A model generated the notes under the pieces. That model searched no databases. It was not told the DNA's origin and saw nothing but the letters and a program-made list of their open reading frames with translations. The translations under genes were made by a program, and so were the position numbers. From positions 229 to 64,228 of the forward strand of contig CAYYJS010000013.1 in assembly GCA_964472315.1 (NCBI GenBank): a stretch of DNA of 64,000 bases, read 5' to 3'. Of the stretch, positions 2,600-19,709 are shown piece after piece (position 1 is the first letter of the stretch; every line of letters begins with the position of its first letter). Source of the stretch: an uncultured Victivallales bacterium. GTDB lineage: Bacteria > Verrucomicrobiota > Kiritimatiellia > UBA8416.

Positions 2600-2662
2600 A
2601 CCATGACACAACAAAATCGCCAGCTAACCGGCCGAATCCGATGCTGAAAGGATGAGAGCCCA

Positions 2663-2854
2663 ATGGACGTCAACAAACTGATGCTCAGCCGGATATTCGA
2701 CAGCACCGAGCGGCTCGATGCACCGCTTTTCCAGCGACCCTACGTGTGGAGCGAGAACCGAAACTGGGACCCGTTGTGGGAAGCGATTGAGTCGCTGGCG
2801 CAGAAACGCGTCGCCGGCAATCTGGGGGTGTCTGGGAGTCACGCGGAGGGTTGA
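2663..2854 (+). pseudogene. Truncated DUF262 (GmrSD N-terminal, ParB-like) fragment
   Basis: The 63-aa ORF contains the DUF262 hallmark LFQRPYVW, paralogous to the N-terminus of the full GmrSD gene at 3236 (LFQRSYSW). It has no DGQQR motif or downstream domains and looks like a remnant. Confidence 0.5.
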
Positions 2855-3040
2855 TGGGAATTCATGTCACAGCTCGGTTGGCCTGGCACAATGACGGGTG
2901 GAACGGGCGGGTTTGCCATGACCCGCCGGGCAACACGTAATGCGTAGGCTGCTACTCATACCCAGGGCTGATGATCGCCGAGCGGCGGGACCTGGCGAAG
3001 GAGACGGCGGCGGCCGGGGTGTCTATGGCGGAACTGGACT

Positions 3041-3089
3041 TCGTGCCGCCCTGCATCCCGCTGGGGTGAATGCAACGCCGGGGCCTGTC
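3041..3089. repeat. 49-bp direct repeat, copy 1 (pairs with 7808-7856; one mismatch)
   Basis: tcgtgccgccctgcatcccgctggggtgaatgcaacgccggggcc[t/c]gtc is present at both positions. The two copies fall in different reading frames, so the repeat is not conserved as coding sequence. Confidence 0.8.
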
Positions 3090-3235
3090 TCTTGCGGCAG
3101 CACGGGCGGCCGTTCTCGCGAAGGGATCTTCCCGGAGGCCGAATCTGTGGTACGGAGGCGATTTGTCGATCGGGGATTACGTGAAGATCCGAGCAGGAAG
3201 AGACTTAGTAGTCGAGAGAGGAACCGAGTAGCGAT

Positions 3236-5878
3236 ATGGACGCGAGAGCAAGAACAGTAAGCGAGATTCTGCACGAAGCGGCGCAGTACATGGTGCCACT
3301 TTTCCAGCGGTCGTACTCCTGGCACAAGGCGCACTGGCAGCGACTGAACGACGACGTGATCGCGCTGGCCGACGACCCTGAGCGCCAGGTTCATTTTCTG
3401 GGACCGCTGGTCTGCACGATCGGTAAGAGCGTGCCCGGATGCCTGCCGGCGTACCAGTTGATCGACGGACAGCAGCGGCTGACGACGCTGACGGTTGCCC
3501 TGGCGGCTATCCGCGACGTGGCACGCGACCGCGGCCTGACTGAACTCGCCGAGGAGATCACCGAGGACTACCTGGTCCACAAACGCAAACAGGACCTTGA
3601 GCGATTCAAAGTGCTGCCCAGGATCGGGGATCGGGACGCGCTGAAGGCGATCATCGAAAATAGCAACCTGGCTCCGTTCGGCCATCTGAGGCTTGTTCAC
3701 GCCTGGCGGTTCTTCCGTCGCCAGTTTTTACACCGCGCGCGGCGGAATCCGCGCGCCGAGCTCCAGAACCTGTTCGACACGATAACGCGGCGGCTGTCGC
3801 TCGTCGTCATTACGATCGACGGGGAGAACCCCTACGAGATCTTCGAGAGCCTGAATGCCACGGGGCTGCCGTTGGCCGAGTCCGATCTCATCCGCAACCA
3901 TGTCTTCATGCAGATTCCCGTTGCCGAGCAGGATGCCTTCGACCGCTCGTACTGGCAGCCGCTGGAGTGGCACTTCATGTCGTGGGGCGATGACCGCCCG
4001 GCGGTGATGACTGACTTCTACCGCGAATACCTGATGCGGGATGGGCGCTATTCGCGTGAGAAGAGCACGTTCGTCGGCTTCAAGCAGCAGCAGAAAGACC
4101 GCGGCCTCAACGCCAGGCAGCAGGCGGAGGAACTCCAACACTACGCCCCGCTGGCAGTGCAGATTCGCAGGCCGGAGACGTGTGCGTCTCCCGTGATCAG
4201 TCGTCGCCTCTCCGAGGTTTCGATGATGGACATCGGGACAGCCCAGGCTTTCGTGATGCACCTACTGGACCGCCATAGCCGCAGTCAACTGAGCGAGCAG
4301 GATCTTTCGACGTGCCTGTGCGATCTGGTGTCGTTCGTCCTGCGGCGCACTGTCTACGGTGACTCCACCCGTGCATACGGCCGGTGGTTCATTGAGGCCA
4401 TCGCCGTGGCCGGCGACACTCCTGTTTCGAACCTGCGACGCTACTGGATGGAACGGGGCTGGCCCGATGATACGGCCTTCACGCATGCCTTGGGAGAGTT
4501 CCAGATCTATAAACGCGAACCCCGCAAGGCCCGTATGGTGCTGGAGGCATTGGAGCTTGCATCCCAGCATAAGGAACAGGTGCCGCTGGAGTCCCTCACC
4601 ATCGAACACGTAATGCCGCAAACCGTCACGGATGACGAGGCGGGAAAGGCGTGGAAGACGGCGTTGGGCGAAAGCTGGGATGATCTCCACGAACGGTACT
4701 TGCATGCACTTGGCAACCTGACGCTGACGGGCTACAACCCAGAGCTTGGCAAGATGGCTTTCCGGAACAAGCAGGAGGTTTACCGCGATAGTCATGTCGG
4801 ATTGAACCAGCGCTTCCGCGACCTGACCACATGGGATTCGGAGTCCATCCGGAATCGGACTACCGCCCTGGCCGCCCAGTTGTGCCGGATCTGGCCGCGA
4901 CCGGATTCTGGCATTCCCTATTCCGCGAGCCAGGATGATTTGACGGGGCAGCAGGCATCTCCAGCTCGCAAGCGGAATCTCGAATACTGGGGGGCACTCC
5001 TGAAACAATGGCCCGAACGGCTGGGCACGCCACCCGCGCCCTCGAATTCAGCCGAACTGGTCATCCCGCTGGATAAGGAGAAGGGCGTTTCCGTCAGCCT
5101 GTGGCAATTCCGACGGGAGCGGAAGGTGGTTGTCTATGTCCGTTTCGAGGGTCGGCTCGGGCGGCGCATCTACGGGCGGCTGCACGAGATCGCGAAGGAG
5201 ATTGACGACAGAATCGAGGGCGAGCTTGTCTGGGATTGGCCCGTCAGGAGCAGTTTCGCGGTCTGCGAGGACGACGTGGACTTTTCGGACCGGAACGACT
5301 GGGAAATTCAGCACGCCTGGTTCATCGAGGAGCTGTCCGATATTATCGAAGCGCTCACCTCCGAAATCGAACAGGTGGCCGAGGCTGAAGAAGGCGATGG
5401 CGGGGCAGATATTCCGGATGAAGCGACCGCGGAACGGCAGCGACTGCGATACCAGTTCTGGACCGGGCTTCTCGGCTATGCGGCGACGAAGACAGACCTT
5501 CACGCCACCCGAAAACCGGGCAAGTTCAACTGGATCGGCGGAGGCATTGGCCGTAGGGGGTTCGGCCTCAACTACAGTGTCCGTGAGTACGAATCGCAGG
5601 TTGAACTCTACATTGACCTGGGCAAGGGGTGCGAGGGGGAGAATGAGCGTGCGTTTGGCGCGCTTAAGAAGGAGCAGACGGTCGCGGAAGCGGTCTTTGG
5701 CGGTCCGTTGGACTGGCAGGATCTGCGAGACAGCCGTGCCTGCCGAATCTGCAAAGTGATCCCGGGCGGTTGGAGATCGGCGCCGGAAACGTGGAGTGAG
5801 ACGCATGCGACCATGGTCGATGCGATGATTCGCCTGGATCGGGCGCTTCGGCCCTATGTGCAGGGCATGCGCCTGTAA
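3236..5878 (+). CDS. GmrSD-family type IV (modification-dependent) restriction endonuclease: DUF262 + DUF1524 with a C-terminal extension
   Basis: 880 aa. The N-terminus has LFQRSYSW and LIDGQQRLTTL (DUF262, ParB/Srx fold). The mid-to-C-terminal region has LTIEHVMPQ and a His-Me finger-like region (DUF1524). The C-terminal ~300 aa resemble a DUF4268-like tail. Confidence 0.75.
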   Translation: MDARARTVSEILHEAAQYMVPLFQRSYSWHKAHWQRLNDDVIALADDPERQVHFLGPLVCTIGKSVPGCLPAYQLIDGQQRLTTLTVALAAIRDVARDRGLTELAEEITEDYLVHKRKQDLERFKVLPRIGDRDALKAIIENSNLAPFGHLRLVHAWRFFRRQFLHRARRNPRAELQNLFDTITRRLSLVVITIDGENPYEIFESLNATGLPLAESDLIRNHVFMQIPVAEQDAFDRSYWQPLEWHFMSWGDDRPAVMTDFYREYLMRDGRYSREKSTFVGFKQQQKDRGLNARQQAEELQHYAPLAVQIRRPETCASPVISRRLSEVSMMDIGTAQAFVMHLLDRHSRSQLSEQDLSTCLCDLVSFVLRRTVYGDSTRAYGRWFIEAIAVAGDTPVSNLRRYWMERGWPDDTAFTHALGEFQIYKREPRKARMVLEALELASQHKEQVPLESLTIEHVMPQTVTDDEAGKAWKTALGESWDDLHERYLHALGNLTLTGYNPELGKMAFRNKQEVYRDSHVGLNQRFRDLTTWDSESIRNRTTALAAQLCRIWPRPDSGIPYSASQDDLTGQQASPARKRNLEYWGALLKQWPERLGTPPAPSNSAELVIPLDKEKGVSVSLWQFRRERKVVVYVRFEGRLGRRIYGRLHEIAKEIDDRIEGELVWDWPVRSSFAVCEDDVDFSDRNDWEIQHAWFIEELSDIIEALTSEIEQVAEAEEGDGGADIPDEATAERQRLRYQFWTGLLGYAATKTDLHATRKPGKFNWIGGGIGRRGFGLNYSVREYESQVELYIDLGKGCEGENERAFGALKKEQTVAEAVFGGPLDWQDLRDSRACRICKVIPGGWRSAPETWSETHATMVDAMIRLDRALRPYVQGMRL

Positions 5879-6163: not shown

Positions 6164-6489
6164 GGTTCCACTCCACATGGACTCTGAGGATATTGATTGT
6201 CTATGGGGACAGTAAGCGGTCATGGAGGCGGCCAGGCCCCCGCAATCGAGGCCTGGATCCAGAAACACGGATGGCACGATACACTGCGAAGCCGCCTGAC
6301 CAAGGTCGGCTTTACGCCGCCTGAGTGTCAAAGGTTTCGCAACGCGCATCACGCGCCGGATGATGAATCAACCCACTTGCGTGAGAAGACGGAATGAGCG
6401 AAGCGAAGCACACGGTGGCACAGCATCTTTGACGCCGAACTTCCCGAGCGCAGGACAACGAAGGCCGTGCTGTCGAGACAATTGCACTC

Positions 6490-7836
6490 ATGGCCTACGG
6501 GTCGATCGTTTCCGTGCCCGGGCGGGAGATCGCCGACGCCGTCGACAGAGTCGTTGATAGGGATACGCCCTTCCCGGTCGAGTACGCCCGAAGCAGCAAA
6601 CGTCGAACCTGGGCTCCAACAGTCGTCGAGGTACCCGAGGGCTACGGCTCCCCAGTCAAAGCCAAGGTGTTTGTCCTCAAGGAGCACGTGACGGAGCAGC
6701 AGGCCCTCGACATGCTCTACAGGCGGGAGATCAACATGGTGGGCGATGCGACCGTGACTTACGACGATGCCCGGCAGAGGAAGAAACGGGACGGTGTCGT
6801 AATTGACAGCCGCAAGGGGTTGGGGGTTGGCAACGTCCTGTACACGACACTCCGGGCCAATATGCCGGAGATCCTCGACAACAGAATTTCCATCGAAGAC
6901 AAGGGACGCCTGTTGGCCGACAAAGCTCGCGCGAGCCTGACTGAAGAGGAATACCGCAGACGGCGGGACGGCATTCAGTATCTTGCAGATAACATCGACC
7001 AAGGAATCATTACTCCTCTGACCACCCCGTACTGTCAGGCAATCCTGTCTGCCATCCCCGGGTCTGGCAATCTGCGGTCAGCGAGGCTGAGGCTGGCGTC
7101 TGAGAGGCTGGGAGTCCGTATTGTCGCCGGCGTCGACGGCTGCAAGGCTGGCTGGTTCGCAGTCTGGGGCGACGGCGCCGAGAACTGGACGTTCGGCGTG
7201 TTTTCAGACTTCGCATCCCTTTGGCAGGAGCTCGCCTACGCCGACCTCATCGTTGTCGATATCCCGATCGGGCTGCCCTCCGATAGCCCCCGAACTTGCG
7301 ATCTGGTGGCGAGGAAGCTCCTGAGAAGGCCTCGGCACTCCAGCGTCTTCCCGGTGCCATGCAGGCAGGCCGTACACGCCTCTTCCGAGGACGAAGCCAA
7401 GGCCGCGAACAAGCGGATCATGGGCAAGAGCATTAGCAGGCAGTGCTTGGGAATCTGCAGCAAGATCGCCGAGGTCGATCGTTTGTTGCTGTCGGACACG
7501 GAGGCACGACAAACCATCAGGGAGGGGCATCCTGAGGTCTCCTTTTATGCCTTTGCAGGTAGTAGACCCATGGAGCACAAGAAATCGATTGCCGAGGGCG
7601 TTGGGGAAAGATTGGCAGTACTGCGTGAGAGATGGTCGAGCATTGACGACCTGTTCAAGAAGGCATCGAAGGAGTGTCGCCGCGGGCATATGGAAAATGA
7701 CGACGTCTTGGACGCGGCGGCCATGTACCTGACGGCGGCGGCGGAAGAGTCCAGGGCGATCCCAACAAAGCGGGAGAGGGATTCGGAGGGGCTGGCGATG
7801 GAAATGGTCGTGCCGCCCTGCATCCCGCTGGGGTGA
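6490..7836 (+). CDS. DUF429 (RNase H-like fold) domain protein with a ~200-aa uncharacterised N-terminal domain
   Basis: 448 aa. The C-terminal half has VAGVDGCKAGWFAVW…LIVVDIPIGLP…CDLVARKLL, typical of DUF429. I do not recognise the N-terminal half. The last codons overlap 49-bp repeat copy 2. Confidence 0.55.
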   Translation: MAYGSIVSVPGREIADAVDRVVDRDTPFPVEYARSSKRRTWAPTVVEVPEGYGSPVKAKVFVLKEHVTEQQALDMLYRREINMVGDATVTYDDARQRKKRDGVVIDSRKGLGVGNVLYTTLRANMPEILDNRISIEDKGRLLADKARASLTEEEYRRRRDGIQYLADNIDQGIITPLTTPYCQAILSAIPGSGNLRSARLRLASERLGVRIVAGVDGCKAGWFAVWGDGAENWTFGVFSDFASLWQELAYADLIVVDIPIGLPSDSPRTCDLVARKLLRRPRHSSVFPVPCRQAVHASSEDEAKAANKRIMGKSISRQCLGICSKIAEVDRLLLSDTEARQTIREGHPEVSFYAFAGSRPMEHKKSIAEGVGERLAVLRERWSSIDDLFKKASKECRRGHMENDDVLDAAAMYLTAAAEESRAIPTKRERDSEGLAMEMVVPPCIPLG

Positions 7837-7871: not shown

Positions 7872-7913
7872 AGTTGACAACAGTTGACAACTGTCGCTTC
7901 GGTTCGCTAACAT
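7872..7913 (+). promoter_or_regulatory. Candidate sigma70-type promoter with operator for the XRE/ImmA operon
   Basis: A tandem 10-bp repeat agttgacaac agttgacaac supplies two TTGACA boxes (7874-7879 and 7884-7889). A perfect palindrome acagttg-a-caactgt lies at 7880-7894. An 18-nt spacer leads to TAACAT (7908-7913), about 55 nt upstream of the XRE gene start. Confidence 0.4.
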
Positions 7914-7967
7914 ACCAACATCAATGACAGAAGCGGGATCACTCCCGCGAAACGGGTGTGGGTGCGT

Positions 7968-9104
7968 ATGATCAAGTCTCTCAATCTTCCAGCTATCACT
8001 GACACGTTGCCACGTGTCGGCCTGAGTGCGGCTGATCTCGCCAGAGAACTCGGCGTCAGCCGGGAAGCAGTCTCGAAGTGGCTCAACGGGAAGTCCACGC
8101 CAAAGCCGGACAAACTGCTCCGGTTAGGCATGCTGCTCGGACTTTCGTTCGACGAATTGACGATACCGGAAGTCAAATCGGCCGTCCCCATTGTGTCATT
8201 CCGGCGTAAGGGTGGGCGCATCACCCGAGACCGTCATCTCGACAAGGCCCGAGATACCGGGGAACTCTTGAGACGTCTGGTGCGGCACCTACCGGAACAG
8301 GGCTTGGCGGCGCCTCCCGTCCTTAGAGATCCTCGGTGCGACTACGACTATGTCCAGAAAGCGGCGGCTGAAACACGACACGAAATGGGCATAAAAGACG
8401 CTGACATGATCGAATACGCCCAACTTATTCAGAAATTCGGTCGGCTCCATGCCATCATTGTCCCTGTACTATGGGGGGAGCGACAGTACCATGGCAACGC
8501 ACTCAACATTCACCTTCCTGATTGCGGGATCACATGGATCTACCTCAACCTGGACAGCAATGCGATCGACTTCAAATTCTGGATGGCGCACGAACTCGGC
8601 CACGCACTTGCCCCGAAGCTAAGCGGGGAAGAGGGCGAGGATTTCGCCGACATGTTTGCGCAGGCACTCCTGTACCCGGAGGCCGTTGCCGCGGAACTAC
8701 GCACTCAACTGGCACGCCGAACGAATGTCGGCCAGCGCATCAATGCTGTCAAGAGCACCGCAAGAGAGCGCCGTATTTCACCAGTCACAATCCGGTACGC
8801 GATCAAGGCCTACGAGGCAGCCCGAGGCCTGGCCCCCCTGGAGTTGGGAGCCGAGGCGTCTTTCATGGGTGCCGCGAGGAACGTCTCCAAGGAGTACGAA
8901 ACGGTAACCGAAACGCTGTTCACGGAGAATCCGCCATCGCCAGCAGACTATGCGGCCATTGGGCGGCGAACCTTCGATAGCCAGTTTTTTGAATCACTGG
9001 CTGCCTATTGCCGCAACGAGGACGGAGCGGAGCATTTCATCCACAGCGTTCTTGACCTGCCGTTAGCCGACGCAAAAGCCCTTGCGGCGGAGCTCGCAAG
9101 ATGA
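7968..9104 (+). CDS. XRE-family HTH fused to an ImmA/IrrE-family (COG2856) zinc metallopeptidase
   Basis: N-terminal HTH (LSAADLARELGVSREAVSKWLNGKSTP). C-terminal HEXXH motif (FWMAHELGHAL). The first ATG in frame is at 7968 (MIKSLNL); the ORF could also start at GTG 7956. Confidence 0.7.
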   Translation: MIKSLNLPAITDTLPRVGLSAADLARELGVSREAVSKWLNGKSTPKPDKLLRLGMLLGLSFDELTIPEVKSAVPIVSFRRKGGRITRDRHLDKARDTGELLRRLVRHLPEQGLAAPPVLRDPRCDYDYVQKAAAETRHEMGIKDADMIEYAQLIQKFGRLHAIIVPVLWGERQYHGNALNIHLPDCGITWIYLNLDSNAIDFKFWMAHELGHALAPKLSGEEGEDFADMFAQALLYPEAVAAELRTQLARRTNVGQRINAVKSTARERRISPVTIRYAIKAYEAARGLAPLELGAEASFMGAARNVSKEYETVTETLFTENPPSPADYAAIGRRTFDSQFFESLAAYCRNEDGAEHFIHSVLDLPLADAKALAAELAR

Positions 9105-9685
9105 GCGGTGGGCCGAAGGTCATCTTGCTCGACAGCAACGCCTATTTCCGCCTCGCTCAGTCCATTCGGCCTTTGCTCAAACCGCGGTATGGCCCACCGC
9201 CGTCGTATTCGCTTCTTGTCCTGAAGGAGCTCGATCAGGAATACCTTCGCAGTGCCCGCCTCCGAAGCAGATTCAACTGGTTCAGCGGCAGAGAATATGT
9301 CAGCGATCGCGAGAAGAACCGCTATACGGTGAGTGGTGCGGGCGCACGACTGGTCGATATCGCGTTCTCCTATCTGGCGAGGCAGGCCGATAGCGAGGGC
9401 CTGAATCTTGCTCGCGAGGACATCCAGGCGCTTGCTGTTGGCCACGCGCGTGGATTTCCTGTCGTCACGGATGACAGGGGCATGCAGAGGCTGGCCGGAA
9501 TATTCGGCATCGAGTGCTGGTCGACGTTGGCGCTCTTGAAGCACATGGTCGATCATGGGCGCATCGATTTCAACATCGTCCGCCAAGTAGTCGAGTATTG
9601 GCACGCAGAGCAGGACCTGCCTTGGCCTTTGAACGAACTTCGCCGGCGTTACAAGGAGTTCTTCTCGGAGGACTGTCCCATATAG
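9101..9685 (+). CDS. PIN-like domain protein (DUF4411-like), the usual partner of ImmA/IrrE-HTH proteins
   Basis: 194 aa. VILLDSNAYFRL at the N-terminus and PVVTDD resemble PIN acidic motifs. The ATGA overlap with the upstream peptidase gene suggests translational coupling. The ImmA-DUF4411 gene pairing is a known conserved neighbourhood. Confidence 0.5.
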   Translation: MSGGPKVILLDSNAYFRLAQSIRPLLKPRYGPPPSYSLLVLKELDQEYLRSARLRSRFNWFSGREYVSDREKNRYTVSGAGARLVDIAFSYLARQADSEGLNLAREDIQALAVGHARGFPVVTDDRGMQRLAGIFGIECWSTLALLKHMVDHGRIDFNIVRQVVEYWHAEQDLPWPLNELRRRYKEFFSEDCPI

Positions 9686-9720
9686 GCCCGCTCGATGCCG
9701 CTACACGGATACCTCACACC

Positions 9721-10524
9721 ATGAACGCACTTGAACGGGCATCGATTGCGAAAGCGGGGCGTGACCACGGGTGGGAGTGCGTGCTGCGCAACGGTGAGCA
9801 TGGCGTCATCCTGGGGTCATCCCGGCATGACGGCGAAGCCACGATCGAGGCGAGCACCCCGGCGGGAGCCTGGTCATGCCTGTTCAACAACGGCCTTGCC
9901 ATGGCGGAGCTGCGCCGTTCGTTCCCGGACGCCGCCCGCGCTGACGGCACATTCGTCCTCGGCGCCATGGGAGCGCTCACCGTCCTTCTCCGGCGTGCGG
10001 CGGAGTTGCACATGTCCCTGCCCAACGCGGCGGCCCGGCGATACGCGAAGTGCGTCAAAGAAGGGGAGCATGTCGAAGGAACGAACGATCTGGCATTCTC
10101 GCAGGTCGGCGATGTGGCCGAAGCCGTACGCCGAAAGACGCTGGTTTTCGACTGGCTGGTACAGAACGAAGACCGAATTCTTGGCGAGCGAGGTGGCAAC
10201 GTCAATGTCCTCTGGGTTGCCGGCGAGAACTCGGTGTTCGTGATCGATCACAATCTCGCATTCGACACGGCTTTCAATGTCGCTTCATGGAAGGCGCAGC
10301 ACGTGTTCCGCAATGATCTCGATGCATGGGATGCCGGGTTCGCCCTTGCATTGGAGCCGTTGCTGAAGGATACTCAGTTGCGGCTGGACGAGTACTGGGG
10401 AGAGTTGCCGGATGAATGGGTTGATGTGGCTTCGCTGCTCCCTGAGTTCTCGCTGGCAAGGCTGCACGCTGTGCTGGCACGATTTGCTGGAGCGAATAGC
10501 CTGTTTGGCATGGTGACAAAATGA
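9721..10524 (+). CDS. HipA-like (HipA_C / PI3K-PI4K-like) kinase-fold protein
   Basis: 267 aa. FDWLVQNEDRILGERGGNVNVLW parallels the HipA catalytic loop (VLIGNTDDHLKNF). VFVIDHNLAFD parallels the HipA activation/DFG-like motif. I see no N-terminal HipA domains. Confidence 0.4.
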   Translation: MNALERASIAKAGRDHGWECVLRNGEHGVILGSSRHDGEATIEASTPAGAWSCLFNNGLAMAELRRSFPDAARADGTFVLGAMGALTVLLRRAAELHMSLPNAAARRYAKCVKEGEHVEGTNDLAFSQVGDVAEAVRRKTLVFDWLVQNEDRILGERGGNVNVLWVAGENSVFVIDHNLAFDTAFNVASWKAQHVFRNDLDAWDAGFALALEPLLKDTQLRLDEYWGELPDEWVDVASLLPEFSLARLHAVLARFAGANSLFGMVTK

Positions 10525-11366
10525 AGAGCAACTACGCCTGCAATTTTGCGGTTGTGAGATTTCTGCCATACCCCGAGACGGATGAATTCGTCAATATCGG
10601 CATTGTCATGGCGTGCCCGCAAACGGGCATCTTCGACTTCAAGATCGACACTCGGCGTCGGGAGCGCATCACGGGATTCTTTCCTGAACTCGATGTTGAT
10701 ACACTCTTGGATGGTCGGAAGGCTTTCGTGCGCGAAGTGGCGCGTGTGAAGGCTGCATTCGACGGGCAAGCGACGCCGGATCAGCGAAGCTTCAACTTCA
10801 GCCAGCGGGAATGCGTCGATATATTCCGGAAACTGGTGAAGCCGCGTGAAAGCGTCTTTCGGTTCAGCGCCATCGGAACGGTGCTCACCATGGACCCGAA
10901 GCAGAAGCTGCAGGAGCTGTTCGCATACTACGTGGAGCGCCAATTCGCGCAGCGTGAGGAGTACCAGGAGACAGTCATGACTCGCCGGCTTGCGACTGTG
11001 TTCAAGGCGGAACACTTGATCGACCTGTACCACGAGCAGCGTTTCGGCGATGAACTATACCATGTGACGCTGCCGTTCGTTCACGAGGTGGACGACGCTG
11101 CGGTCAAGGCGATCAAACCCCTCGACCTCGACAAACATGATTCAACCCGGATCATTGAATATGGCGACAAATGGCAACGCCGTATCGAGCGCCTCCGTGG
11201 CATGGGGGACTTCCCCAAGCGGATTCTGTTTGTCGTGCGCCAGCCCGGAAGTGGCCGCAAGCGAGAGGCAGCGGAAAGCGTGCGTCGTGATCTTGAAGCC
11301 CTTCACGCCGAGACGCTCAACGAGCGCGATAAGGCTGAGGTGGTCGCATTCGCCCGGGCCGGATAG
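10521..11366 (+). CDS. DUF3037-like protein
   Basis: 281 aa. The N-terminus CNFAVVRFLPYPETDEFVNIGIVM matches my recollection of the DUF3037 consensus. Its ATGA overlaps the upstream kinase-like gene. Confidence 0.4.
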   Translation: MKSNYACNFAVVRFLPYPETDEFVNIGIVMACPQTGIFDFKIDTRRRERITGFFPELDVDTLLDGRKAFVREVARVKAAFDGQATPDQRSFNFSQRECVDIFRKLVKPRESVFRFSAIGTVLTMDPKQKLQELFAYYVERQFAQREEYQETVMTRRLATVFKAEHLIDLYHEQRFGDELYHVTLPFVHEVDDAAVKAIKPLDLDKHDSTRIIEYGDKWQRRIERLRGMGDFPKRILFVVRQPGSGRKREAAESVRRDLEALHAETLNERDKAEVVAFARAG

Positions 11367-11442
11367 CTTGCCTGGCGCTGGAAGAGGGGGGCGACAGACT
11401 CGTGAACCAAACGCGGGCTGTCAGAGCTGGCGATGACATTTG

Positions 11443-11537
11443 AGGGAGCCAAGGGCCAGGCCATCTGAGCGCGATGGGCCGGGGTGCATGTCCCCTCCCC
11501 GTAGCCTCCGTCGCCAGGCGGTGGACTCCCCACATGG
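11443..11537. repeat. 95-bp direct repeat, copy A (pairs with 17592-17686; one mismatch)
   Basis: agggagccaagggccaggccatctgagcgcgatgggccggggtgcatgtcccctccccgtagcctccgtcgccag[g/a]cggtggactccccacatgg is present at both positions. The pair brackets the helicase module. Confidence 0.85.
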
Positions 11538-11581: not shown

Positions 11582-14500
11582 ATGAGTGATACAGCCACAG
11601 ATCCCATTTCAGACTGCGTCCGGCTGGATCTGGAGACCAACCAGTCTGGGGGGATTCTCAAAATCGGTGCCGTCCGTGGCAATCGGACTTTCCTGCGTAC
11701 GGGCCGCTTTGACCAGAAGGCTGCGCTGGCTGAGCTGGATGGTCTGTGTCGGGGAGCATCTTGCGTGGTCGGCCATAATGTTGTGCTTCATGACTTGGAA
11801 GTCCTCAGGGAGCACAGCGCTTCGCTTTCGCTTCTGAGGCTGCCGGTAATCGATACGCTGTTCCTGTCGCCGATCTGCTTCCCGGAGAACCCATATCATC
11901 ACCTGGTCAAGGACTACAAACTAGTCTCGGACTCTGTGAACGATCCCGTCGCGGACGCACGGCTTTCCGGCGTCTTGCTCGCGGATGAGGTGCAGTCGCT
12001 GCGCGGAAGGGCCGAAGCGGCTCCCGATGTGTTCCGTTGCCTGCAGTTTCTGCTGTGCGCAGAAGGCGGCACCGACAACCTTCTGTCTGTGGGTATGCAG
12101 TTGGTGTTTGGCGCAGCCGGTGGAGGCGACTCGGTCACGACACAGCAAGGGCGCCCGTTGCTCACGTCAGTCCTAGGGGATCTGGCCTGTCGAACCGGCG
12201 CGGCATACCTGGCGGAAACCGACTTTGGCTCCGCGCAATCGCGTTGGGCACTGGCGTATGTGCTGTCGTGGCTGCGCGTCGCCGGCGCCGATTCCGTACT
12301 GCCGCCCTGGGTACGTCTGCACAACCCGCTGGTGAGCCCGATCCTTTCGCGACTGCGCGATGTCCCGTGTGACAGTCCCGAGTGCACGTACTGCCGTGCG
12401 ACTCACGATCCCGAGGCCCAACTGTCACGTTTTTTCGGATTCGACAGCTTCCGCCCCACTCCGCCGGATGCAAACGGCCAGAGTCTTCAGCGCGGCATTG
12501 TCTTGGCGGGCATGCGAAATGAGTCCGTGCTGGCCATCATGCCCACCGGCGGAGGGAAATCACTCTGCTTCCAGCTTCCCGCCCTGGTGCGCAACTTACG
12601 CAGAGGGCAGCTCACCATCGTCGTGTCTCCCCTGCAGGCGCTCATGAAGGATCAGGTCGATGGCCTTGTGCGCCGGACCCACATGCACAACGCAGCGGCG
12701 CTTTACGGGTTGCTGACTTCACCCGAACGAGGGGAGGTCCTGCGCGGCGTGCGAACCGGGAGCATTGCGCTCCTTTACGTTTCGCCAGAACAACTGCGCG
12801 GGAAGTCGTTCAGGAATGCCGTGCTTCAGCGAGAGATCGGCTGCTGGGTTCTGGATGAGGCGCACTGTCTGTCCAAATGGGGACACGACTTTCGTCCTGA
12901 CTACCTGTACGTAGGCCGGTTCATCCGCGAATTGGCGAAAGAGCAGGCAGGCGCCCTGCCGGCAATCGCCTGCTTCACGGCAACTGCGAAGCGGGATGTC
13001 ATCGACGAAATCGTCGAGTTCTTCCGCCGCGAGACCGGCACGGAACTGATTCGCTATGAAGGCGGCGTCGAGCGCGACAACCTGCATTTCGAGGTACAGA
13101 CTGTGGGTGCGCATGCGAAGTTGCCGCGGATGCATGATCTTCTGAGTGCCCGACTGCGGCCCGGCGGCCCTGGAAGCGCAGTCGTATTCCGTGCTACGCG
13201 AAAGGCTGCGGAGGAAACGGCGGAATTCCTCGTTACTAAGGGCTGGTCCGCGGCATGTTTTCATGCCGGACTGCTGGCGACCGACAAGAAGCGCATCCAG
13301 AATGACTTCCTGGCTGGCGAAATCCAGGTCATCTGTGCGACCAACGCTTTCGGGATGGGTATCGACAAGGATGACGTCAGGCTCGTCATCCACGGCGACA
13401 CGCCGGGATCGCTGGAGAACTACCTGCAGGAAGCCGGACGGGCCGGGCGAGACCGGAATCCCGCCGACTGCGTGCTCCTATACGACGAAGAGGATTGCGA
13501 GCAACAATTTCGCATGGGTGCTCACTCCGAGCTGAGCCGCCGCGATATCGCCCAGATCCTTCGCGGTCTCCGCAAGGCCGCCCGGTCGCGGAAAACCGAT
13601 GAAGTCGTCATCACAACCGGTGAGTTGCTGCGCGATGAAGACGTCGATACTGAATTTGGTCCCCAAGACAATTCAGCGGACACCAAGGTGCGGGCCGCCG
13701 TCTCATGGCTGGAGCGTGCAGGATTTGTCGAACGGAACGAGAACCGGACCAACGTCGTGCAGGCCCGACTGCTCGTCAAGAGTATCGACGAGGCCCGGGC
13801 GCAGTTGGCGAGGCTCAACTTGTCCGAACGGGAGGGCGGCCTGTGGTTAGCGATCATACGCGAGATGATGAACGCCTCCGAGATGGATACGCTATCCGTC
13901 GACGAGATTGCCCTGTTGCCCGAGTTCCAGTCCTACTTGGAGGAAGCCCGTTCCGGTGCGCCGGAGCGGCTGGTACGGGAAGGGCGCAGCCAGGAGTATC
14001 TGAGCGCGAAGGTGCTGAAAGTCCTCGACGCGATGATGGGTGTGGGCGTGCTCAAGAAGGATACGCTGCTGACAGCGTACGTGCGGTATAAGGTCGCGGA
14101 TCATTCTGGGATCAGACTGGACCGCGTGCTCGGCGTGGATCGCGAGTTCCTCAAGCTGCTGTCCGAGGAAGAGCCAGATCCGGAGGGGTGGCTCTCGCTC
14201 AACCTCCGTCTCGTGAACGACGAACTGTTGTCGCGAGGGGTTGACTGCTCGCCGGAAATGCTGCGACAGCTCCTGCGGAGCCTGAGCGAGGATGGTCGAG
14301 GGTTCGCGGGCCAAACGGGCAGCATTGACTGCCGCTACGTGGGGCGTGACGCCTACCGCGTCAGGGTTCGAAGGGAATGGCGACAAGCTGAGGCGCTGGC
14401 CGAAGTGAGGAGGAGAGTGGCAACCAAGATCCTGGAAGCCCTCTTGGACACAGTCCCGCCGAATACACCGCCTAAGGGCGACCTCTTGGTTGAGTTCGCG

Positions 14501-16804
14501 TTCGAGACGCTCCGGTCGGCGTTGGAGAGTGACCTGACCCTTCGCTCCGATATTCGTGACATGCAGGCGGCCATCGAGCGCGGGTTGATGTTTCTACATG
14601 AGCAGAGCGTCATCATCCTTCAAAAGGGGCTGGCGATATTCCGCTCTGCCATGACCGTCCGCGTTCTGCCCGAAGGTGACCGCCAACGGTATACGGCAGA
14701 ACACTACGACGCGCTGCAGCACCACTACCGTGAGCGTGTGTTTCAGGTGCATGTGATGAACGAGTACGCCCGTTACGGACTGCAGAAGATCCGCGCAGCT
14801 CTCGAGTTGGTCGTCGCATACTTCACGATGGACAAGGAGTCGTTCATCCGACGGTTCTTCAGTGACAGCGGGGAACTGCTGGAGAGAGCCACGACGGCGC
14901 GGTCCTACCGCGCGATCGTAGACAGCCTGGGAAACCGCGATCAGATCCGCATTGTGACCCAGCCGACTCAGAAAAACATCCTGATCCTGGCCGGACCAGG
15001 CTCAGGGAAGACCCGAACCGTCGTGCACCGGTGTGCGTACCTGTTGCGCGTTAAGCGCGTACGTCCCCGGGCCGTCTTGGTCTGCTGCTTCAACCACAAG
15101 GCCGTCCTGGAGTTGCGCCGACGCCTGGCCGCTTTGGTTGGCAAGGACGCCATCGGGGTTACGATTCAGACCTACCACGGCCTGGCCCTTCGCATCCTCG
15201 GCCTGTCCTGCCGCGGACTGGAGGACAGGAACGGGACCACGCCCGATTTCGACCAGCTCATATCCGACGCTGTACGCGTCCTGCGTGGAGAGTCCGGAGT
15301 GCCGGGTGTCGAGCCGGACGACGTTCGTGACCGCCTGTTGGCCGGCTTTGAGCACATTCTCGTGGACGAGTACCAGGACATCGATGAGCCCCAGTACGAG
15401 ATGATCAGCGCCATAGCCGGCCGTACCCTCAAGGACGGGGAGCGCAAACTGTCCATTCTGGCTGTCGGCGACGACGACCAGAGCATCTACGGTTTTCGGG
15501 GCGCCAACGTGGAATTCATCCGTCGCTTCAAGACGGACTACGAGGCGGATGTTGCCTTCCTGATCGAGAACTACCGTTCCACGCGCCATATCATTGAGGC
15601 GGCCAACCGCTTGATCGGGCGCAATCATGACCGCATGAAGGTGGACAAGGAGATCCGAATCGACCAGGGACGTGGCTTACTCCCGCCGGGCGGGGTGTTC
15701 GGCCAGAAGGACGCCCTTACGCGCGGCCGCGTCACGCTCGTCGAGGTCGGGGACGCTTCGGTGCAGGCGTCAGCCGTCGTGCGCGAGATCAAGCGGCTGC
15801 GCGCCTTGGGCGCAACCCGCTGGGAGGACATCGCCGTCCTCTCGCGCACACGGCGAGACCTTGCCCTGGTGCGCGCCGCAGCGGAAGCCGATGGCATTCC
15901 CGTTTCGTGGCCGCTGGACCGCGGCAAGATACCTCCGCTGAGCCGCATCCGTGAGGTATGGAACGTCCTGTCCGAACTGGCCTCTATTCGCGGCGAATCC
16001 ACCACGGCTTCGGACCTGCTTGTTCGGTTTGGGCTTTCGGACGACTCACCGCCAGCAAATCCCTGGCGGGTGCTCATCCAGGACTGCCTGCATGCGTGGG
16101 CCGACGAGACACTGGACGAAAGACTTCCTGTCGCCACCGCTCTCGAGGGGCTTTACGAGGCGCTGGCCCAGCGACGGCGCGACGAACAGTTCGGCTGCGG
16201 CGTAGTCCTGAACACAGTCCATGCGGCCAAAGGCACGGAATACGAGCATGTCCTGCTCTGCGGCGATTGGTCGGGCGCGCGAGGGGCGGACATTGAGGAG
16301 GAACGCCGTGTTCTTTACGTCGGCATGACCCGTGCCCGCCACACCTTAGCTGTTTTCAACAGGATGGACCGCCGCAATCCCTTTGCCGACGAACTCACCG
16401 GGCCGTGTTTCACCTACCGCCGCGAGTCTGCCGGCCCAGCCGGACGCGACCACGATGCATCGGATTATGTCCTGCTCGGCATGGAAGATATCTTCCTGGA
16501 CTTCGCCGGCCAGCAGCCCGCCGGCCACCCCGTACACACTGCGCTGGCGGGGCTTCAGCCCGGCGACAAACTGGCAGTGTCCCGTAACGGCGCGCGGCCC
16601 GCGTTGCTGAACGCGGACGGGCAGATGCTTGCTCGGTTCTCTGCCAAGGCCGCTGATACGTGGAAGGATCGTCTCGACACGATTCGTGACGTTCAAGTCA
16701 TCTGCAACGTTATTCGACAGCGCACCGACTGCAAAGAGAGCGAATACCAAGACCGGCTCAAAGCGGACAGATGGGAGATCCCGATCTGCGAGATCCGGAT
16801 GTAG
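11582..16804 (+). CDS. Tri-domain protein: N-terminal DnaQ-like DEDDh 3'-5' exonuclease, RecQ-family helicase and UvrD/PcrA-family helicase
   Basis: 1740 aa.
- Exonuclease: RLDLETNQ…VVGHNVVLHDLEVL matches exonuclease motifs I and III.
- RecQ: MPTGGGKSLCFQLPAL and LDEAHCLSKWGHDFRPDY are RecQ signatures.
- UvrD: ILILAGPGSGKTRTVVHR (Walker A), VDEYQDIDEPQYEMI (motif II) and YVGMTRAR (motif VI).
The last ~150 aa are unassigned. Confidence 0.7.
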   Translation: MSDTATDPISDCVRLDLETNQSGGILKIGAVRGNRTFLRTGRFDQKAALAELDGLCRGASCVVGHNVVLHDLEVLREHSASLSLLRLPVIDTLFLSPICFPENPYHHLVKDYKLVSDSVNDPVADARLSGVLLADEVQSLRGRAEAAPDVFRCLQFLLCAEGGTDNLLSVGMQLVFGAAGGGDSVTTQQGRPLLTSVLGDLACRTGAAYLAETDFGSAQSRWALAYVLSWLRVAGADSVLPPWVRLHNPLVSPILSRLRDVPCDSPECTYCRATHDPEAQLSRFFGFDSFRPTPPDANGQSLQRGIVLAGMRNESVLAIMPTGGGKSLCFQLPALVRNLRRGQLTIVVSPLQALMKDQVDGLVRRTHMHNAAALYGLLTSPERGEVLRGVRTGSIALLYVSPEQLRGKSFRNAVLQREIGCWVLDEAHCLSKWGHDFRPDYLYVGRFIRELAKEQAGALPAIACFTATAKRDVIDEIVEFFRRETGTELIRYEGGVERDNLHFEVQTVGAHAKLPRMHDLLSARLRPGGPGSAVVFRATRKAAEETAEFLVTKGWSAACFHAGLLATDKKRIQNDFLAGEIQVICATNAFGMGIDKDDVRLVIHGDTPGSLENYLQEAGRAGRDRNPADCVLLYDEEDCEQQFRMGAHSELSRRDIAQILRGLRKAARSRKTDEVVITTGELLRDEDVDTEFGPQDNSADTKVRAAVSWLERAGFVERNENRTNVVQARLLVKSIDEARAQLARLNLSEREGGLWLAIIREMMNASEMDTLSVDEIALLPEFQSYLEEARSGAPERLVREGRSQEYLSAKVLKVLDAMMGVGVLKKDTLLTAYVRYKVADHSGIRLDRVLGVDREFLKLLSEEEPDPEGWLSLNLRLVNDELLSRGVDCSPEMLRQLLRSLSEDGRGFAGQTGSIDCRYVGRDAYRVRVRREWRQAEALAEVRRRVATKILEALLDTVPPNTPPKGDLLVEFAFETLRSALESDLTLRSDIRDMQAAIERGLMFLHEQSVIILQKGLAIFRSAMTVRVLPEGDRQRYTAEHYDALQHHYRERVFQVHVMNEYARYGLQKIRAALELVVAYFTMDKESFIRRFFSDSGELLERATTARSYRAIVDSLGNRDQIRIVTQPTQKNILILAGPGSGKTRTVVHRCAYLLRVKRVRPRAVLVCCFNHKAVLELRRRLAALVGKDAIGVTIQTYHGLALRILGLSCRGLEDRNGTTPDFDQLISDAVRVLRGESGVPGVEPDDVRDRLLAGFEHILVDEYQDIDEPQYEMISAIAGRTLKDGERKLSILAVGDDDQSIYGFRGANVEFIRRFKTDYEADVAFLIENYRSTRHIIEAANRLIGRNHDRMKVDKEIRIDQGRGLLPPGGVFGQKDALTRGRVTLVEVGDASVQASAVVREIKRLRALGATRWEDIAVLSRTRRDLALVRAAAEADGIPVSWPLDRGKIPPLSRIREVWNVLSELASIRGESTTASDLLVRFGLSDDSPPANPWRVLIQDCLHAWADETLDERLPVATALEGLYEALAQRRRDEQFGCGVVLNTVHAAKGTEYEHVLLCGDWSGARGADIEEERRVLYVGMTRARHTLAVFNRMDRRNPFADELTGPCFTYRRESAGPAGRDHDASDYVLLGMEDIFLDFAGQQPAGHPVHTALAGLQPGDKLAVSRNGARPALLNADGQMLARFSAKAADTWKDRLDTIRDVQVICNVIRQRTDCKESEYQDRLKADRWEIPICEIRM

Positions 16805-19083: not shown

Positions 19084-19709
19084 GGGGTGCCCTCCTCCCG
19101 GCCGATCGCCCTGAAGTAGGAGTGCATCCAGGCCGGGGCGAGCGTGATGTCGGCAAGCAACTGGCGGCGATCATCAAGAGAAAGCAGCTTGTGCAGGTGC
19201 GCCACCCTGTCGGGCGTGATGTTTGCTTTGCCGACATAGCGCAGCGCCGCGATGACGAGACCAGTCATCCTGCCGGAGGCGGCCATCATGCGTGGCGAGG
19301 CCTGGCGCAGTTCGATGGTCTGGTTCCCGTAGCGCAGCTTGCGTGGTTTTCCGTCGGTCAGGAAGACCACGCGGGCCGGGACCTGCTCAGAAAGACGCAA
19401 GAGGTTGGCCGCATAGCCGCCAAACGGTTGAAGCTTTACGTGATCGCGGTCAGCCAGCGCTTTGGCTACGGCCTCCACGGGTGGCAGAATATCTCCCAGG
19501 ACGGGGTGTGTCTTGGGCTGGTAGTACAGCCCCCGGGCGAGTCGCCGCAGGAAGCCGGACGCCACCAGGCGGGACAACGCCTTGTCAACCGCTGTGCGCG
19601 TATCCAAGTCGAGAAAACGCCCCGCATGGAACACCGTATCGGGGCCAGTCTTTTCGACCCGCCAGCGGATGCGGTCCGCCGTACTGTCGTGTGTCTTGGG
19701 CCTAGCCAT
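19080..19709 (-). CDS. AbiEi-family antitoxin/transcriptional regulator (type IV toxin-antitoxin system)
   Basis: About 209 aa, directly upstream of and overlapping abiEii. Its size and the positively charged C-terminal domain are consistent with AbiEi. ATG at 19709 (MARPKTHD…); the ORF could extend to TTG at 19748. Confidence 0.6.
   Translation of the reverse strand: MARPKTHDSTADRIRWRVEKTGPDTVFHAGRFLDLDTRTAVDKALSRLVASGFLRRLARGLYYQPKTHPVLGDILPPVEAVAKALADRDHVKLQPFGGYAANLLRLSEQVPARVVFLTDGKPRKLRYGNQTIELRQASPRMMAASGRMTGLVIAALRYVGKANITPDRVAHLHKLLSLDDRRQLLADITLAPAWMHSYFRAIGREEGTP

What the first reader, a model, noticed from the sequence alone, without database searches (positions are those of the whole stretch)
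9721..11366. HipA-like catalytic core lacking N-terminal HipA domains, paired with a DUF3037-like partner
The 267-aa protein retains only the catalytic-loop-like motif (LVQNEDRILGERGGN) and the downstream VIDHNLAFD motif of the HipA/PI3-PI4 kinase fold. It overlaps by ATGA with a protein whose N-terminus resembles DUF3037. This could be a minimal kinase toxin with a novel antitoxin or cofactor. Note that DR replaces HipA's DH in the catalytic loop. Alternatively it could be a nucleotide- or protein-modifying effector regulated by the upstream ImmA switch. The DUF3037 assignment is from memory of the family consensus.
Basis: inference. Interest (0 to 1): 0.6.

Follow-up and report, generated by a model that had tools for sequence, protein, structure and literature searches.

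The report
Broken HipA-like kinase / DUF3037 defence pair
This is a copy of an already known two-gene anti-phage toxin-antitoxin system (a HipA-like kinase plus a DUF3037 protein) in which the front half of the kinase has been replaced by a piece of an unrelated nuclease gene, so it is most likely a dead relic and not a new minimal kinase.

Summary
ORF A (9721-10524, 267 aa) matches Pfam HipA_2, and ORF B (10521-11366, 281 aa) is a DUF3037 protein. They overlap by ATGA. The pairing is already known: it is PADLOC candidate PDC-M66, and relatives have been shown to defend against phage (DS-6/'HipAD' in E. coli, and the pair in the Retron-Sda1 operon). In those relatives the kinase behaves as the toxin and DUF3037 as its neutraliser. 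In 73 loci that encode a relative of B, 56 carry a full-length HipA_2 gene directly upstream.

The 'minimal kinase' reading is wrong. All relatives are about 245 aa and have a conserved N-lobe with an invariant Lys and Glu. In this window that N-lobe is missing. Residues 1-114 of A are instead the N-terminal domain of an unrelated HNH_2 endonuclease family, fused in frame at codon 115 to the kinase C-lobe, with a jump in GC content at the junction. The catalytic Asp (D151, equivalent to DS-6A D139) and the DHN motif survive, but the presumed ATP-binding half does not. I conclude that A is probably an inactivated toxin next to an intact antitoxin-like gene. Nine other loci show similar kinase erosion. 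The upstream HTH/ImmA gene belongs to a separate two-gene module with a PIN-like protein. This is a degenerate member of a known system.

The parts
9721..10062 (+). 5' segment of ORF A (residues 1-114): the N-terminal domain of an HNH_2 endonuclease family, without its HNH domain
   Evidence: phmmer against 1.84 billion representatives gave 80 hits, the best at E 7e-20 and 45% identity, with Met1 aligned to Met1 of the hits. The full-length relatives are about 250 aa and carry PF13391 HNH_2 in their C-terminal half. BLASTP against P0152 gave 39% identity over residues 1-114, E 6e-23. The family-invariant residues are retained. GC is 0.675 and GC3 0.79, against 0.566 in the rest of the ORF. AF2 pLDDT is below 50 here.
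10063..10065 (+). Fusion junction (codon 115, Gly), between ...AKCVKE and EHVEG...
   Evidence: HNH-family homology ends at residue 114. HipA_2 homology starts at nt 10066, residue 116 (tblastn; DNA alignment). The junction peptide was not found in JGI metagenome contigs.
10066..10524 (+). 3' segment of ORF A (residues 116-267 plus stop): the C-lobe of a HipA_2 kinase
   Evidence: Pfam HipA_2, E 4.5e-29, profile positions 88-231 of 240. It is 68% identical to P0002/P0003 over this part only. It is 29% identical to validated DS-6A residues 103-230, E 1e-12. AF2 pLDDT is about 80. All family-invariant C-lobe residues are retained.
10156..10200 (+). Catalytic-loop motif LVQNEDRILGERGGN (D151, R152, N160)
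   Evidence: D151, R152, G159, N160 and N162 are invariant across the HipA_2 alignment. D151 aligns with DS-6A D139, whose Ala substitution abolishes defence (PMC13092281).
10240..10266 (+). VIDHNLAFD motif (D176-H177-N178), the presumed metal-binding Asp motif
   Evidence: D176, H177, N178 and F181 are invariant. The role in metal binding is inferred by analogy with the DFG/D332 position of kinases and HipA.
10521..10524 (+). ATGA overlap between the stop codon of A and the start codon of B (translational coupling)
   Evidence: Read directly from the sequence. The same 4-bp overlap occurs in DS-6 (A at 2415-3164, B at 1591-2418) and in L002. In 55 of the 56 loci with a full-length kinase the gap is between -8 and +15 nt; one locus has +116.
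10521..11366 (+). ORF B, an intact 281-aa DUF3037 protein (antitoxin-like partner)
   Evidence: Pfam DUF3037, residues 9-138, E 9.7e-26. PADLOC PDC-M66B, E 8.4e-22, residues 8-262. There are 144 homologues at 40-75% identity with full-length coverage. It is 25% identical to DS-6B across residues 7-279, E 5e-30. AF2 mean pLDDT is 85.9 with two domains. The C-terminal domain (about residues 146-281) gives weak matches to the XPF/Mus81 restriction-endonuclease-like fold (E about 0.1, probability 0.84).
7968..9104 (+). Neighbour, not part of the system: HTH_3 plus M78 (ImmA/IrrE) protein, RmrA-like
   Evidence: Pfam HTH_3 E 4e-12 and Peptidase_M78 E 4e-5. PADLOC RmrA, E 1.7e-12. The 378-aa form is the one called in L001 and in relatives.
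9101..9685 (+). Neighbour, not part of the system: 194-aa PIN-like protein, coupled to the HTH/M78 gene by ATGA
   Evidence: There are 236 homologues. Distant ones carry PF01850 PIN or PF11848. The gene always sits directly after a 378-aa HTH gene with a 4-bp overlap, in unrelated contexts that lack HipA_2 and DUF3037.
7884..7913 (+). The only sigma-70-like promoter match upstream on this strand; possible source of read-through transcription into A and B
   Evidence: TTGACA, 18-nt spacer, TAACAT: 10 of 12 positions match. No such site lies between 9686 and 9720. This is a consensus match only.

Best explanation
The locus is a degenerate copy of the HipA_2 kinase / DUF3037 two-gene anti-phage toxin-antitoxin-like system (PADLOC PDC-M66; validated relatives DS-6/'HipAD' and the pair in the Retron-Sda1 operon). 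In intact members a kinase of about 245 aa is the toxic effector. The DUF3037 protein of about 280 aa is translated from an overlapping downstream gene, binds the kinase and neutralises it. Phage infection is thought to release the kinase, which then arrests the cell.

In this window a recombination or deletion event joined codon 114 of an unrelated HNH_2 endonuclease gene, in frame, to about codon 96 of the kinase gene. The HNH domain and the whole kinase N-lobe were removed. That N-lobe carries the family-invariant Lys and Glu, which I take to be the ATP-binding pair. The product keeps the catalytic Asp and the DHN motif but has no nucleotide-binding half, so it is most likely not an active kinase. 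The DUF3037 gene is intact and still translationally coupled.

Shown: family membership of both genes, co-conservation, the chimeric structure and its junction, and the uniqueness of the fusion. Inferred: loss of kinase activity, loss of defence function, and the deletion mechanism.
For: Family assignment: Pfam HipA_2 at 4.5e-29 and DUF3037 at 9.7e-26, and PADLOC PDC-M66A/B.

Direct homology to the validated DS-6 system: B against DS-6B over the full length, E 5e-30. A against DS-6A over the C-lobe only, E 1e-12. Canonical relative P0002 against DS-6A over the full length, E 7e-36. The DS-6 genes have the same order and the same 4-bp overlap, and D139A abolishes defence (PMC13092281). Deleting DUF3037 is toxic and deleting the kinase abolishes defence (PMC12548924).

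Co-conservation: 56 of 73 loci have a full-length kinase directly upstream on the same strand.

Chimera: every HipA_2 homologue aligns only to A residues 116-267. No N-lobe remnant exists in any frame. Residues 1-114 belong to an HNH_2-family N-domain. In 80 metagenome loci encoding that N-domain, it is followed by the HNH domain in 61 of the 79 loci that match the full-length HNH proteins, and never by HipA_2 or DUF3037. GC jumps from 0.675 to 0.566 at the junction. AF2 pLDDT is below 50 for residues 1-116 and about 80 for the C-lobe.

Lost residues: P24, C27, Y35, K38, G39 and E50 (P0002 numbering), all invariant in the family. The only stretch of HipA_2 that hhalign could align to E. coli HipA (HipA residues 199-223) lies in the lost part, although that match is not significant (probability 4%).

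Precedent for toxin erosion: 9 of the 73 loci have a truncated or frameshifted kinase next to an intact DUF3037 gene, and 8 have no kinase.

The junction is real: the identical four-gene block is present on an independent Logan contig seen in 3 samples.
Against: The ORF is open, in frame and still coupled to B. Every family-invariant residue of the C-lobe is intact, so there is no sign of decay after the fusion. That fits a very recent event, but it also fits continued selection on the fusion protein.

Loss of activity is inferred from general kinase architecture. It has not been measured, and no structure of a HipA_2 kinase was available to confirm which residues bind ATP. Sequence search of the PDB found nothing, and Foldseek matches to kinases were all weak (E above 0.1).

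The AF2 alignment had no homologues for the N-terminal part, so the low pLDDT there is partly expected.
Confidence: 0.8

Rival explanations
1. The fusion is a working new effector. The HNH-family N-terminal domain supplies a new sensing or targeting function, or an unconventional nucleotide-binding function, to the kinase C-lobe. With DUF3037 it would form a functional variant defence system.
For: The reading frame is intact, and it uses the HNH gene's own start codon. The ATGA coupling is retained. All invariant C-lobe residues are retained, including D151, N160, N162 and D176-H-N. The N-domain keeps its own family-invariant residues. The locus lies in a dense defence island where domain shuffling is common.
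Against: The architecture is unique. The protein cluster has one member. The junction peptide is absent from JGI metagenomes. None of the 80 loci with the N-domain and none of the 80 loci with a DUF3037 relative has this fusion. The N-domain shows no match to the kinase N-lobe profile and lacks the invariant Lys and Glu context. AF2 does not give a confident N-terminal fold or lobe packing.
Confidence: 0.08
2. An intact minimal HipA-type toxin-antitoxin pair controlled by the upstream ImmA/HTH protease switch.
For: The four genes lie on the same strand with short gaps. The only promoter-like site is upstream of the HTH/M78 gene, so co-transcription is plausible in this genome.
Against: The HTH/M78 gene overlaps the PIN-like gene by ATGA. 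That pair recurs alone in at least four unrelated contexts. No relative of the kinase/DUF3037 pair has an HTH/M78 neighbour in the loci examined. Family members are not 'minimal': they carry an N-lobe that is missing here.
Confidence: 0.04
3. Assembly artefact: the junction at about 10064 is a chimeric join made by the assembler and not a real gene fusion.
For: GC content changes abruptly at the junction, and the gene product is unique to this genome.
Against: The same four-gene block, with an identical 267-aa product, is present on a separately assembled Logan contig reported from 3 samples. The join is in frame and uses no repeat.
Confidence: 0.03

Closest known systems
DS-6 / 'HipAD' of E. 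coli (DefensePredictor, PMC13092281; Brenes & Laub 2025, pmid 40409266)
   Same: The same two families are present in the same order, with the same 4-bp overlap: a HipA_2 kinase (DS-6A, 249 aa) upstream of a DUF3037 protein (DS-6B, 275 aa). B aligns with DS-6B over its full length (25% identity, E 5e-30). The catalytic Asp of DS-6A (D139) is conserved here as D151.
   Different: DS-6A has the complete kinase with its N-lobe. The window protein aligns only from DS-6A residue 103 onward, and its first 114 residues come from an HNH-family gene. DS-6 is shown to defend against phage; nothing has been tested here. Pfam does not detect DUF1829 in B's C-terminal half, whereas HHpred gave probability 0.78 for DS-6B.
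PADLOC candidate system PDC-M66, and the HipA-like/DUF3037 pair in the Retron-Sda1 operon (PMC12548924)
   Same: Both proteins match the PDC-M66A and PDC-M66B models. The toxin (kinase) and neutraliser (DUF3037) logic was shown by deletions in the Sda1 operon.
   Different: The match to PDC-M66A is weak and partial here (E 6.7e-6, residues 133-222), compared with E 3.8e-15 over residues 8-178 for the canonical relative P0002. No retron reverse transcriptase or ncRNA is nearby (and the ORF survey).
Classical HipBA type II toxin-antitoxin system (E. coli HipA/HipB)
   Same: The concept of a Ser/Thr-kinase toxin with a catalytic Asp and a downstream Asp motif. The protein is named 'HipA-like' in Pfam.
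   Different: There is no match to the HipA Pfam families. Profile comparison with E. coli HipA is not significant (probability 4%). The HipA N-terminal domains are absent. The partner is DUF3037 encoded downstream, not the HTH protein HipB encoded upstream. The catalytic loop reads D-R...N, not D-G-H-A-K-N.
HNH_2 (PF13391) endonucleases of about 250 aa with a conserved N-terminal domain
   Same: Residues 1-114 of ORF A are 35-45% identical to the N-terminal domain of this family and start at the same Met.
   Different: The HNH catalytic half is absent from the window. In this window the N-domain is joined to a kinase C-lobe, an arrangement seen nowhere else.

Membership tests
Pfam HipA_2 (PF20613) kinase family | Score above the Pfam gathering threshold | tested here: met
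   101.8 bits against a cut-off of 27, E 4.5e-29.
Pfam HipA_2 (PF20613) kinase family | Catalytic loop N-x-D-R...G-G-N-x-N and the I-D-H-N motif | tested here: met
   D151, R152, G159, N160, N162 and D176-H177-N178 are present in A and invariant in the family.
Pfam HipA_2 (PF20613) kinase family | Complete domain including the N-lobe (RPFxC...YxVKG...EW...GLPIP; invariant P24, C27, Y35, K38, G39, E50) | tested here: not met
   Only profile positions 88-231 of 240 are matched. Homologues cover only 25-57% of A, always within its C-terminal part. tblastn finds no N-lobe in any frame. Residues 1-114 belong to another family.
Pfam HipA_2 (PF20613) kinase family | Protein-kinase-like fold | tested here: inconclusive
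HipA_2/DUF3037 defence system (PDC-M66; DS-6/HipAD) | Kinase gene directly upstream of a DUF3037 gene on the same strand, overlapping or nearly so | tested here: met
   ATGA overlap at 10521-10524. The same layout is seen in DS-6 and in 56 of 73 related loci.
HipA_2/DUF3037 defence system (PDC-M66; DS-6/HipAD) | Partner protein homologous to DS-6B / PDC-M66B over its full length | tested here: met
   BLASTP against DS-6B: residues 7-279 to 5-269, E 5e-30. PDC-M66B: E 8.4e-22, residues 8-262.
HipA_2/DUF3037 defence system (PDC-M66; DS-6/HipAD) | Full-length, catalytically competent kinase | tested here: not met
   The N-lobe is replaced. Catalytic competence itself cannot be tested in silico.
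HipA_2/DUF3037 defence system (PDC-M66; DS-6/HipAD) | Kinase toxicity neutralised by DUF3037; protection against phage | not testable with these tools
   This needs expression and plaque assays. It has been shown only for relatives (PMC12548924, PMC13092281).
Classical HipBA toxin-antitoxin system | HipA_C/HipA_N/Couple_hipA domains, and an upstream HipB HTH antitoxin that is the cognate partner | tested here: not met
   No HipA Pfam families are hit. hhalign of HipA_2 against E. coli HipA gives probability 4%. The upstream HTH protein is coupled to a PIN-like gene instead.
DUF3037 (PF11236) | Full-length match to the Pfam model above threshold | tested here: met
   Profile positions 1-118 of 118, 90.7 bits against a cut-off of 22.6. 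All 33 aligned homologues match.
RosmerTA-like HTH/M78 antitoxin module (neighbouring genes 7968-9685) | An RmrA-type HTH plus M78 peptidase protein adjacent to a toxin gene | tested here: inconclusive
   RmrA models hit at E 1.7e-12. The partner is PIN-like only through distant relatives, and no PADLOC model hits it.

The most novel reading that the evidence does not exclude
The in-frame fusion of the HNH-family N-domain to the HipA_2 C-lobe is a selected, functional new protein. It could be an ATP-independent scaffold or decoy that still binds DUF3037, or a kinase with an unconventional nucleotide-binding half. That would be a new way of rewiring a kinase toxin-antitoxin defence system. Separately, the intact DUF3037 gene may be kept because it has a role of its own, such as anti-addiction against incoming HipA_2 toxins or DNA binding. 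This would fit the 17 of 73 loci where DUF3037 persists next to an eroded or absent kinase.
Probability: 0.08. Interest if true: 0.55.

Novelty: new member of a known kind. Interest (0 to 1): 0.22.

Why it matters
Mainly as a correction. A gene that annotation pipelines will call 'HipA_2 kinase', and that PADLOC-type tools may count as a PDC-M66 system, is here a chimera without its N-lobe. It should not be counted as a functional defence system or as a 'minimal kinase'.

It also gives a small, concrete data point on how these systems decay. In about a quarter of loci related through DUF3037, the kinase is truncated, frameshifted or absent while DUF3037 stays intact. This is what is expected if the kinase is the toxic partner, and it agrees with the deletion experiments on relatives.

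The junction also fixes a boundary: the C-lobe alone (residues 116-267) is what is left next to its partner. That could be used experimentally to ask whether the C-lobe is enough to bind DUF3037.

Tried and rejected
- A profile of HipA_2 searched against PDB sequences gave no meaningful hit.
- hhalign of the HipA_2 profile against E. coli HipA gave only a 25-column match at probability 4%, so no residue-level mapping to HipA K181/D309/D332 could be made. The N-lobe Lys/Glu assignment remains an inference.
- Foldseek of the B model gave only weak hits to the XPF/Mus81-like fold. The aligned homologues show no conserved PD-(D/E)xK-type acidic residues in the C-terminal domain, so I did not call it a nuclease.
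- Pfam does not detect DUF1829 in B or in any of its 32 aligned relatives.
- I looked for the ancestral arrangement (intact HNH gene next to intact hipA_2). There was no HNH-family hit in the DUF3037-related loci and other earlier loci searched, and no HipA_2 or DUF3037 in 80 loci encoding the N-domain.
- A search for the junction peptide in JGI metagenomes found nothing.
- Megablast of 7900-11500 against plasmids found nothing.
- The first N-domain alignment was too diverse for a locus search.
- The alternative GTG start at 9514 (336 aa) was rejected. The HNH-family homologues start at the Met at 9721, and third-position GC in this reading frame is low upstream of about 9700.
- The 194-aa upstream gene in L002 turned out to be an unrelated fragment, not a relative of the window's 194-aa gene.
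Full report
**1. What is in the sequence**

ORF A runs from 9721 to 10524 on the + strand and encodes 267 aa. ORF B runs from 10521 to 11366 on the + strand and encodes 281 aa. They overlap by ATGA. Pfam assigns A to HipA_2 (PF20613, 'HipA-like kinase') at E 4.5e-29. Only A residues 117-255 align, to profile positions 88-231 of 240. Pfam assigns B to DUF3037 (PF11236) at E 9.7e-26, with the whole profile covered by residues 9-138. NCBIfam has no model for either protein.

**2. The pair is a known system**

PADLOC models PDC-M66A and PDC-M66B hit A (E 6.7e-6) and B (E 8.4e-22). Two papers report experiments on relatives.

- In the Retron-Sda1 operon, a HipA-like kinase and a DUF3037 protein defend against phage Bas51 independently of the retron. 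Deleting the kinase abolishes defence, and deleting DUF3037 is toxic. The authors identify the pair as PDC-M66 (PMC12548924).
- DefensePredictor validated DS-6 (renamed HipAD, also found by Brenes & Laub 2025). DS-6A is a HipA-family kinase and DS-6B carries DUF3037 plus DUF1829. A catalytic mutant loses defence, and AlphaFold3 predicts an A-B complex (PMC13092281).

The supplement of the second paper gives the DS-6 sequences and layout. DS-6A (WP_000389051.1, 249 aa) is HipA_2 by HHpred. DS-6B (WP_000210934.1, 275 aa) is encoded downstream with a 4-bp overlap. The mutant is D139A.

Direct comparisons with the window proteins give the following.

| Comparison | Aligned residues | Identity | E-value |
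|---|---|---|---|
| B vs DS-6B | 7-279 to 5-269 (nearly full length) | 25% | 5e-30 |
| A vs DS-6A | 118-241 to 103-230 (C-lobe only) | 29% | 1e-12 |
| P0002 (canonical relative) vs DS-6A | 5-222 to 9-230, N-lobe included | 33% | 7e-36 |

DS-6A D139 (in NADR) corresponds to A D151 (in NEDR).

**3. Co-conservation**

I used an alignment of 33 B homologues to fetch 80 loci from GTDB representative genomes. They come mostly from Verrucomicrobiota, Lentisphaerota and Kiritimatiellota, with some Pseudomonadota. A HipA_2 profile was then searched against all ORFs of those loci. Of the 73 loci with enough upstream sequence:

- 56 have a full-length kinase ORF on the same strand ending within -8 to +15 nt of the start of B (one outlier at +116);
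- 9 have a truncated or frameshifted kinase (L012, L032, L039, L044, L055, L059, L069, L080, L082);
- 8 have no detectable kinase.

The two genes are strongly linked. When one of them decays, it is the kinase.

**4. The kinase gene in this window is a chimera**

Every HipA_2 homologue found (about 245 aa) aligns only with A residues 116-267. This holds even for the closest ones, which are 68% identical. Their conserved N-terminal 95 residues (RRAEQGxTRPFLCxxDDxxWYWVKG...EWIAGRIAQxFGLPIP) have no counterpart in the window in any reading frame (tblastn). DNA homology to the closest canonical locus, L002, starts at about nt 10066. In the family alignment the lost region holds the invariant residues P24, C27, Y35, K38, G39 and E50.

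A phmmer search with A residues 1-116 against 1.84 billion cluster representatives found 80 relatives, the best at E 7e-20 and 45% identity. Nearly all align from their own first residue. The full-length relatives are proteins of about 250 aa whose C-terminal half is an HNH_2 endonuclease domain (PF13391). BLASTP of A residues 1-114 against P0152 gives 39% identity, E 6e-23, ending at ...VKE. A retains the invariant residues of this N-domain family. The HNH half is not present anywhere in the window.

In 80 metagenome loci that encode this N-domain, 79 match the full-length HNH proteins and 61 of those have the HNH domain directly after the N-domain. None has HipA_2, DUF3037 or the upstream window genes within 4 kb. 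The junction peptide KCVKEGEHVEG does not occur in the JGI metagenome contigs, and the protein cluster has a single member.

Composition changes at the junction. GC is 0.675 (GC3 0.79) for 9721-10065 and 0.566 (GC3 0.65) for 10066-10521. AlphaFold2 gives pLDDT below 50 for residues 1-116 and about 80 for residues 120-265. The identical four-gene block occurs on an independently assembled Logan contig seen in three samples, which argues against an assembly artefact.

**5. Interpretation**

In protein-kinase-like enzymes the N-lobe supplies the Lys-Glu pair and the loop that hold ATP. This is established knowledge of the fold. Assigning that role to K38 and E50 of HipA_2 is my inference, because no solved relative could be aligned. 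A protein with only the C-lobe, even with its catalytic Asp and DHN motif intact, should not bind ATP productively.

I therefore read ORF A as an inactivated toxin created by a recombination or deletion event. That event joined a resident HNH endonuclease gene to the 3' two-thirds of hipA_2 and destroyed both enzymes. ORF B is intact, confidently folded (pLDDT 85.9, two domains) and still coupled to A.

Toxin erosion with retention of the antitoxin-like gene is what the nine eroded loci also show. It fits the reported toxicity of the DUF3037 deletion.

One caveat is that the C-lobe shows no decay at all: every invariant residue is kept. The event is therefore either recent, or the fusion is still under selection. 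I give the second possibility about 8%.

**6. The upstream 'ImmA switch'**

The HTH_3 plus M78 protein (7968-9104) overlaps by ATGA a 194-aa protein (9101-9685) whose distant relatives carry PIN domains. This pair (378 aa plus 194 aa, 4-bp overlap) recurs by itself in unrelated neighbourhoods in L084-L087. It resembles RosmerTA antitoxins in PADLOC (RmrA, E 1.7e-12). It is an independent module, not a conserved regulator of the kinase/DUF3037 pair. The closest canonical pair (L002) has a different neighbourhood. In this window, the only promoter-like match on the strand lies upstream of the HTH gene (7884-7913), so read-through into A-B is possible but incidental.

**7. Context**

Positions 1 to about 22,000 form a defence island with lower GC (0.57-0.62, against 0.64-0.70 further on). 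It contains:

- an AAA_13 / PDC-S06 ATPase;
- a GmrSD-DUF4268 fusion;
- a DUF429 protein;
- the HTH/M78-PIN-like module;
- the A-B pair;
- a 1740-aa RecQ-UvrD fusion helicase;
- AbiEi/AbiEii.

**8. Verdict**

The locus is a degenerate new member of a known kind. Interest is low to modest. It is useful mainly as a caution for annotation and as an example of toxin erosion in this family.

Noticed in passing
window 11582-16804 (+): A 1740-aa single ORF fuses a RecQ-type helicase (DEAD/Helicase_C, residues about 280-650; PADLOC DpdF E 2.7e-107, PsyrT E 4.8e-80) to a UvrD/PcrA-type helicase (residues about 1120-1590; GajB-like). It also has an unassigned N-terminal region of about 280 aa whose sequence (…GHNVVLHDLEVL…) looks like a DEDDh exonuclease to my eye. 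That last point is untested. It lies directly downstream of the DUF3037 gene.
   Followed up: partly
window 7968-9685 (+); L084-L087: An HTH_3/M78 (RmrA-like, 378 aa) gene and a 194-aa PIN-like gene overlap by 4 bp and form a recurrent, self-contained two-gene module found in many PVC-group genomes in unrelated contexts. In L087 it sits between two FabA/ApeI-like genes of 107 and 145 aa, which might be two halves of an interrupted gene.
   Followed up: partly
window 6197-6397 (+) and L002:643-915: A small ORF (66 aa) shares a 31-residue stretch (IEAWIQKHGWHDTLRSRLTKVG, 55% identity, pairwise E 3e-11) with the 90-aa ORF that overlaps the start of the canonical hipA_2 gene in L002/L003. In the window it lies upstream of the DUF429 gene instead. 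It was not found in any other fetched locus.
   Followed up: partly
window 6490-7836 (+): A DUF429 protein (Pfam E 4e-53, residues 214-429) has an unassigned N-terminal extension of about 210 aa. No PADLOC or NCBIfam model matches it.
   Followed up: no
window 287-5878 (+): An AAA_13 ATPase (PADLOC PDC-S06, E 1e-58) is followed by an 880-aa fusion of GmrSD_N/GmrSD_C (a type IV restriction-like enzyme) with a C-terminal DUF4268 (PDC-S11-like).
   Followed up: no
window 18061-19748 (-): An AbiEii nucleotidyltransferase toxin (E 7e-91 in PADLOC) and an AbiEi/DUF6088 antitoxin form a complete AbiE pair in the same island.
   Followed up: no
window about 1-22000 versus 23000-64000: GC is 0.57-0.62 in the defence-gene region and 0.64-0.72 beyond about 23 kb. 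This suggests a horizontally acquired island. No tRNA lies at the boundary; the only tRNA is tRNA-Gln at 47455-47528.
   Followed up: partly
L012, L032, L039, L044, L055, L059, L069, L080, L082 (DUF3037-related loci): The kinase gene next to an intact DUF3037 gene is eroded again and again, by 5' truncations, 3' truncations or frameshifts. Eight further loci (L007, L011, L014, L015, L020, L034, L062, L076) have DUF3037 with no detectable HipA_2. In L014 the upstream gene is a different 272-aa protein.
   Followed up: partly
window 10956-11363 (B residues about 146-281): The C-terminal domain of the DUF3037 protein is predicted with high confidence as a beta-beta-beta-alpha-beta-alpha-beta-alpha unit. 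It gives weak Foldseek matches to XPF/Mus81/Hef nuclease domains (restriction-endonuclease-like fold), but the aligned homologues show no conserved acidic catalytic residues.
   Followed up: partly
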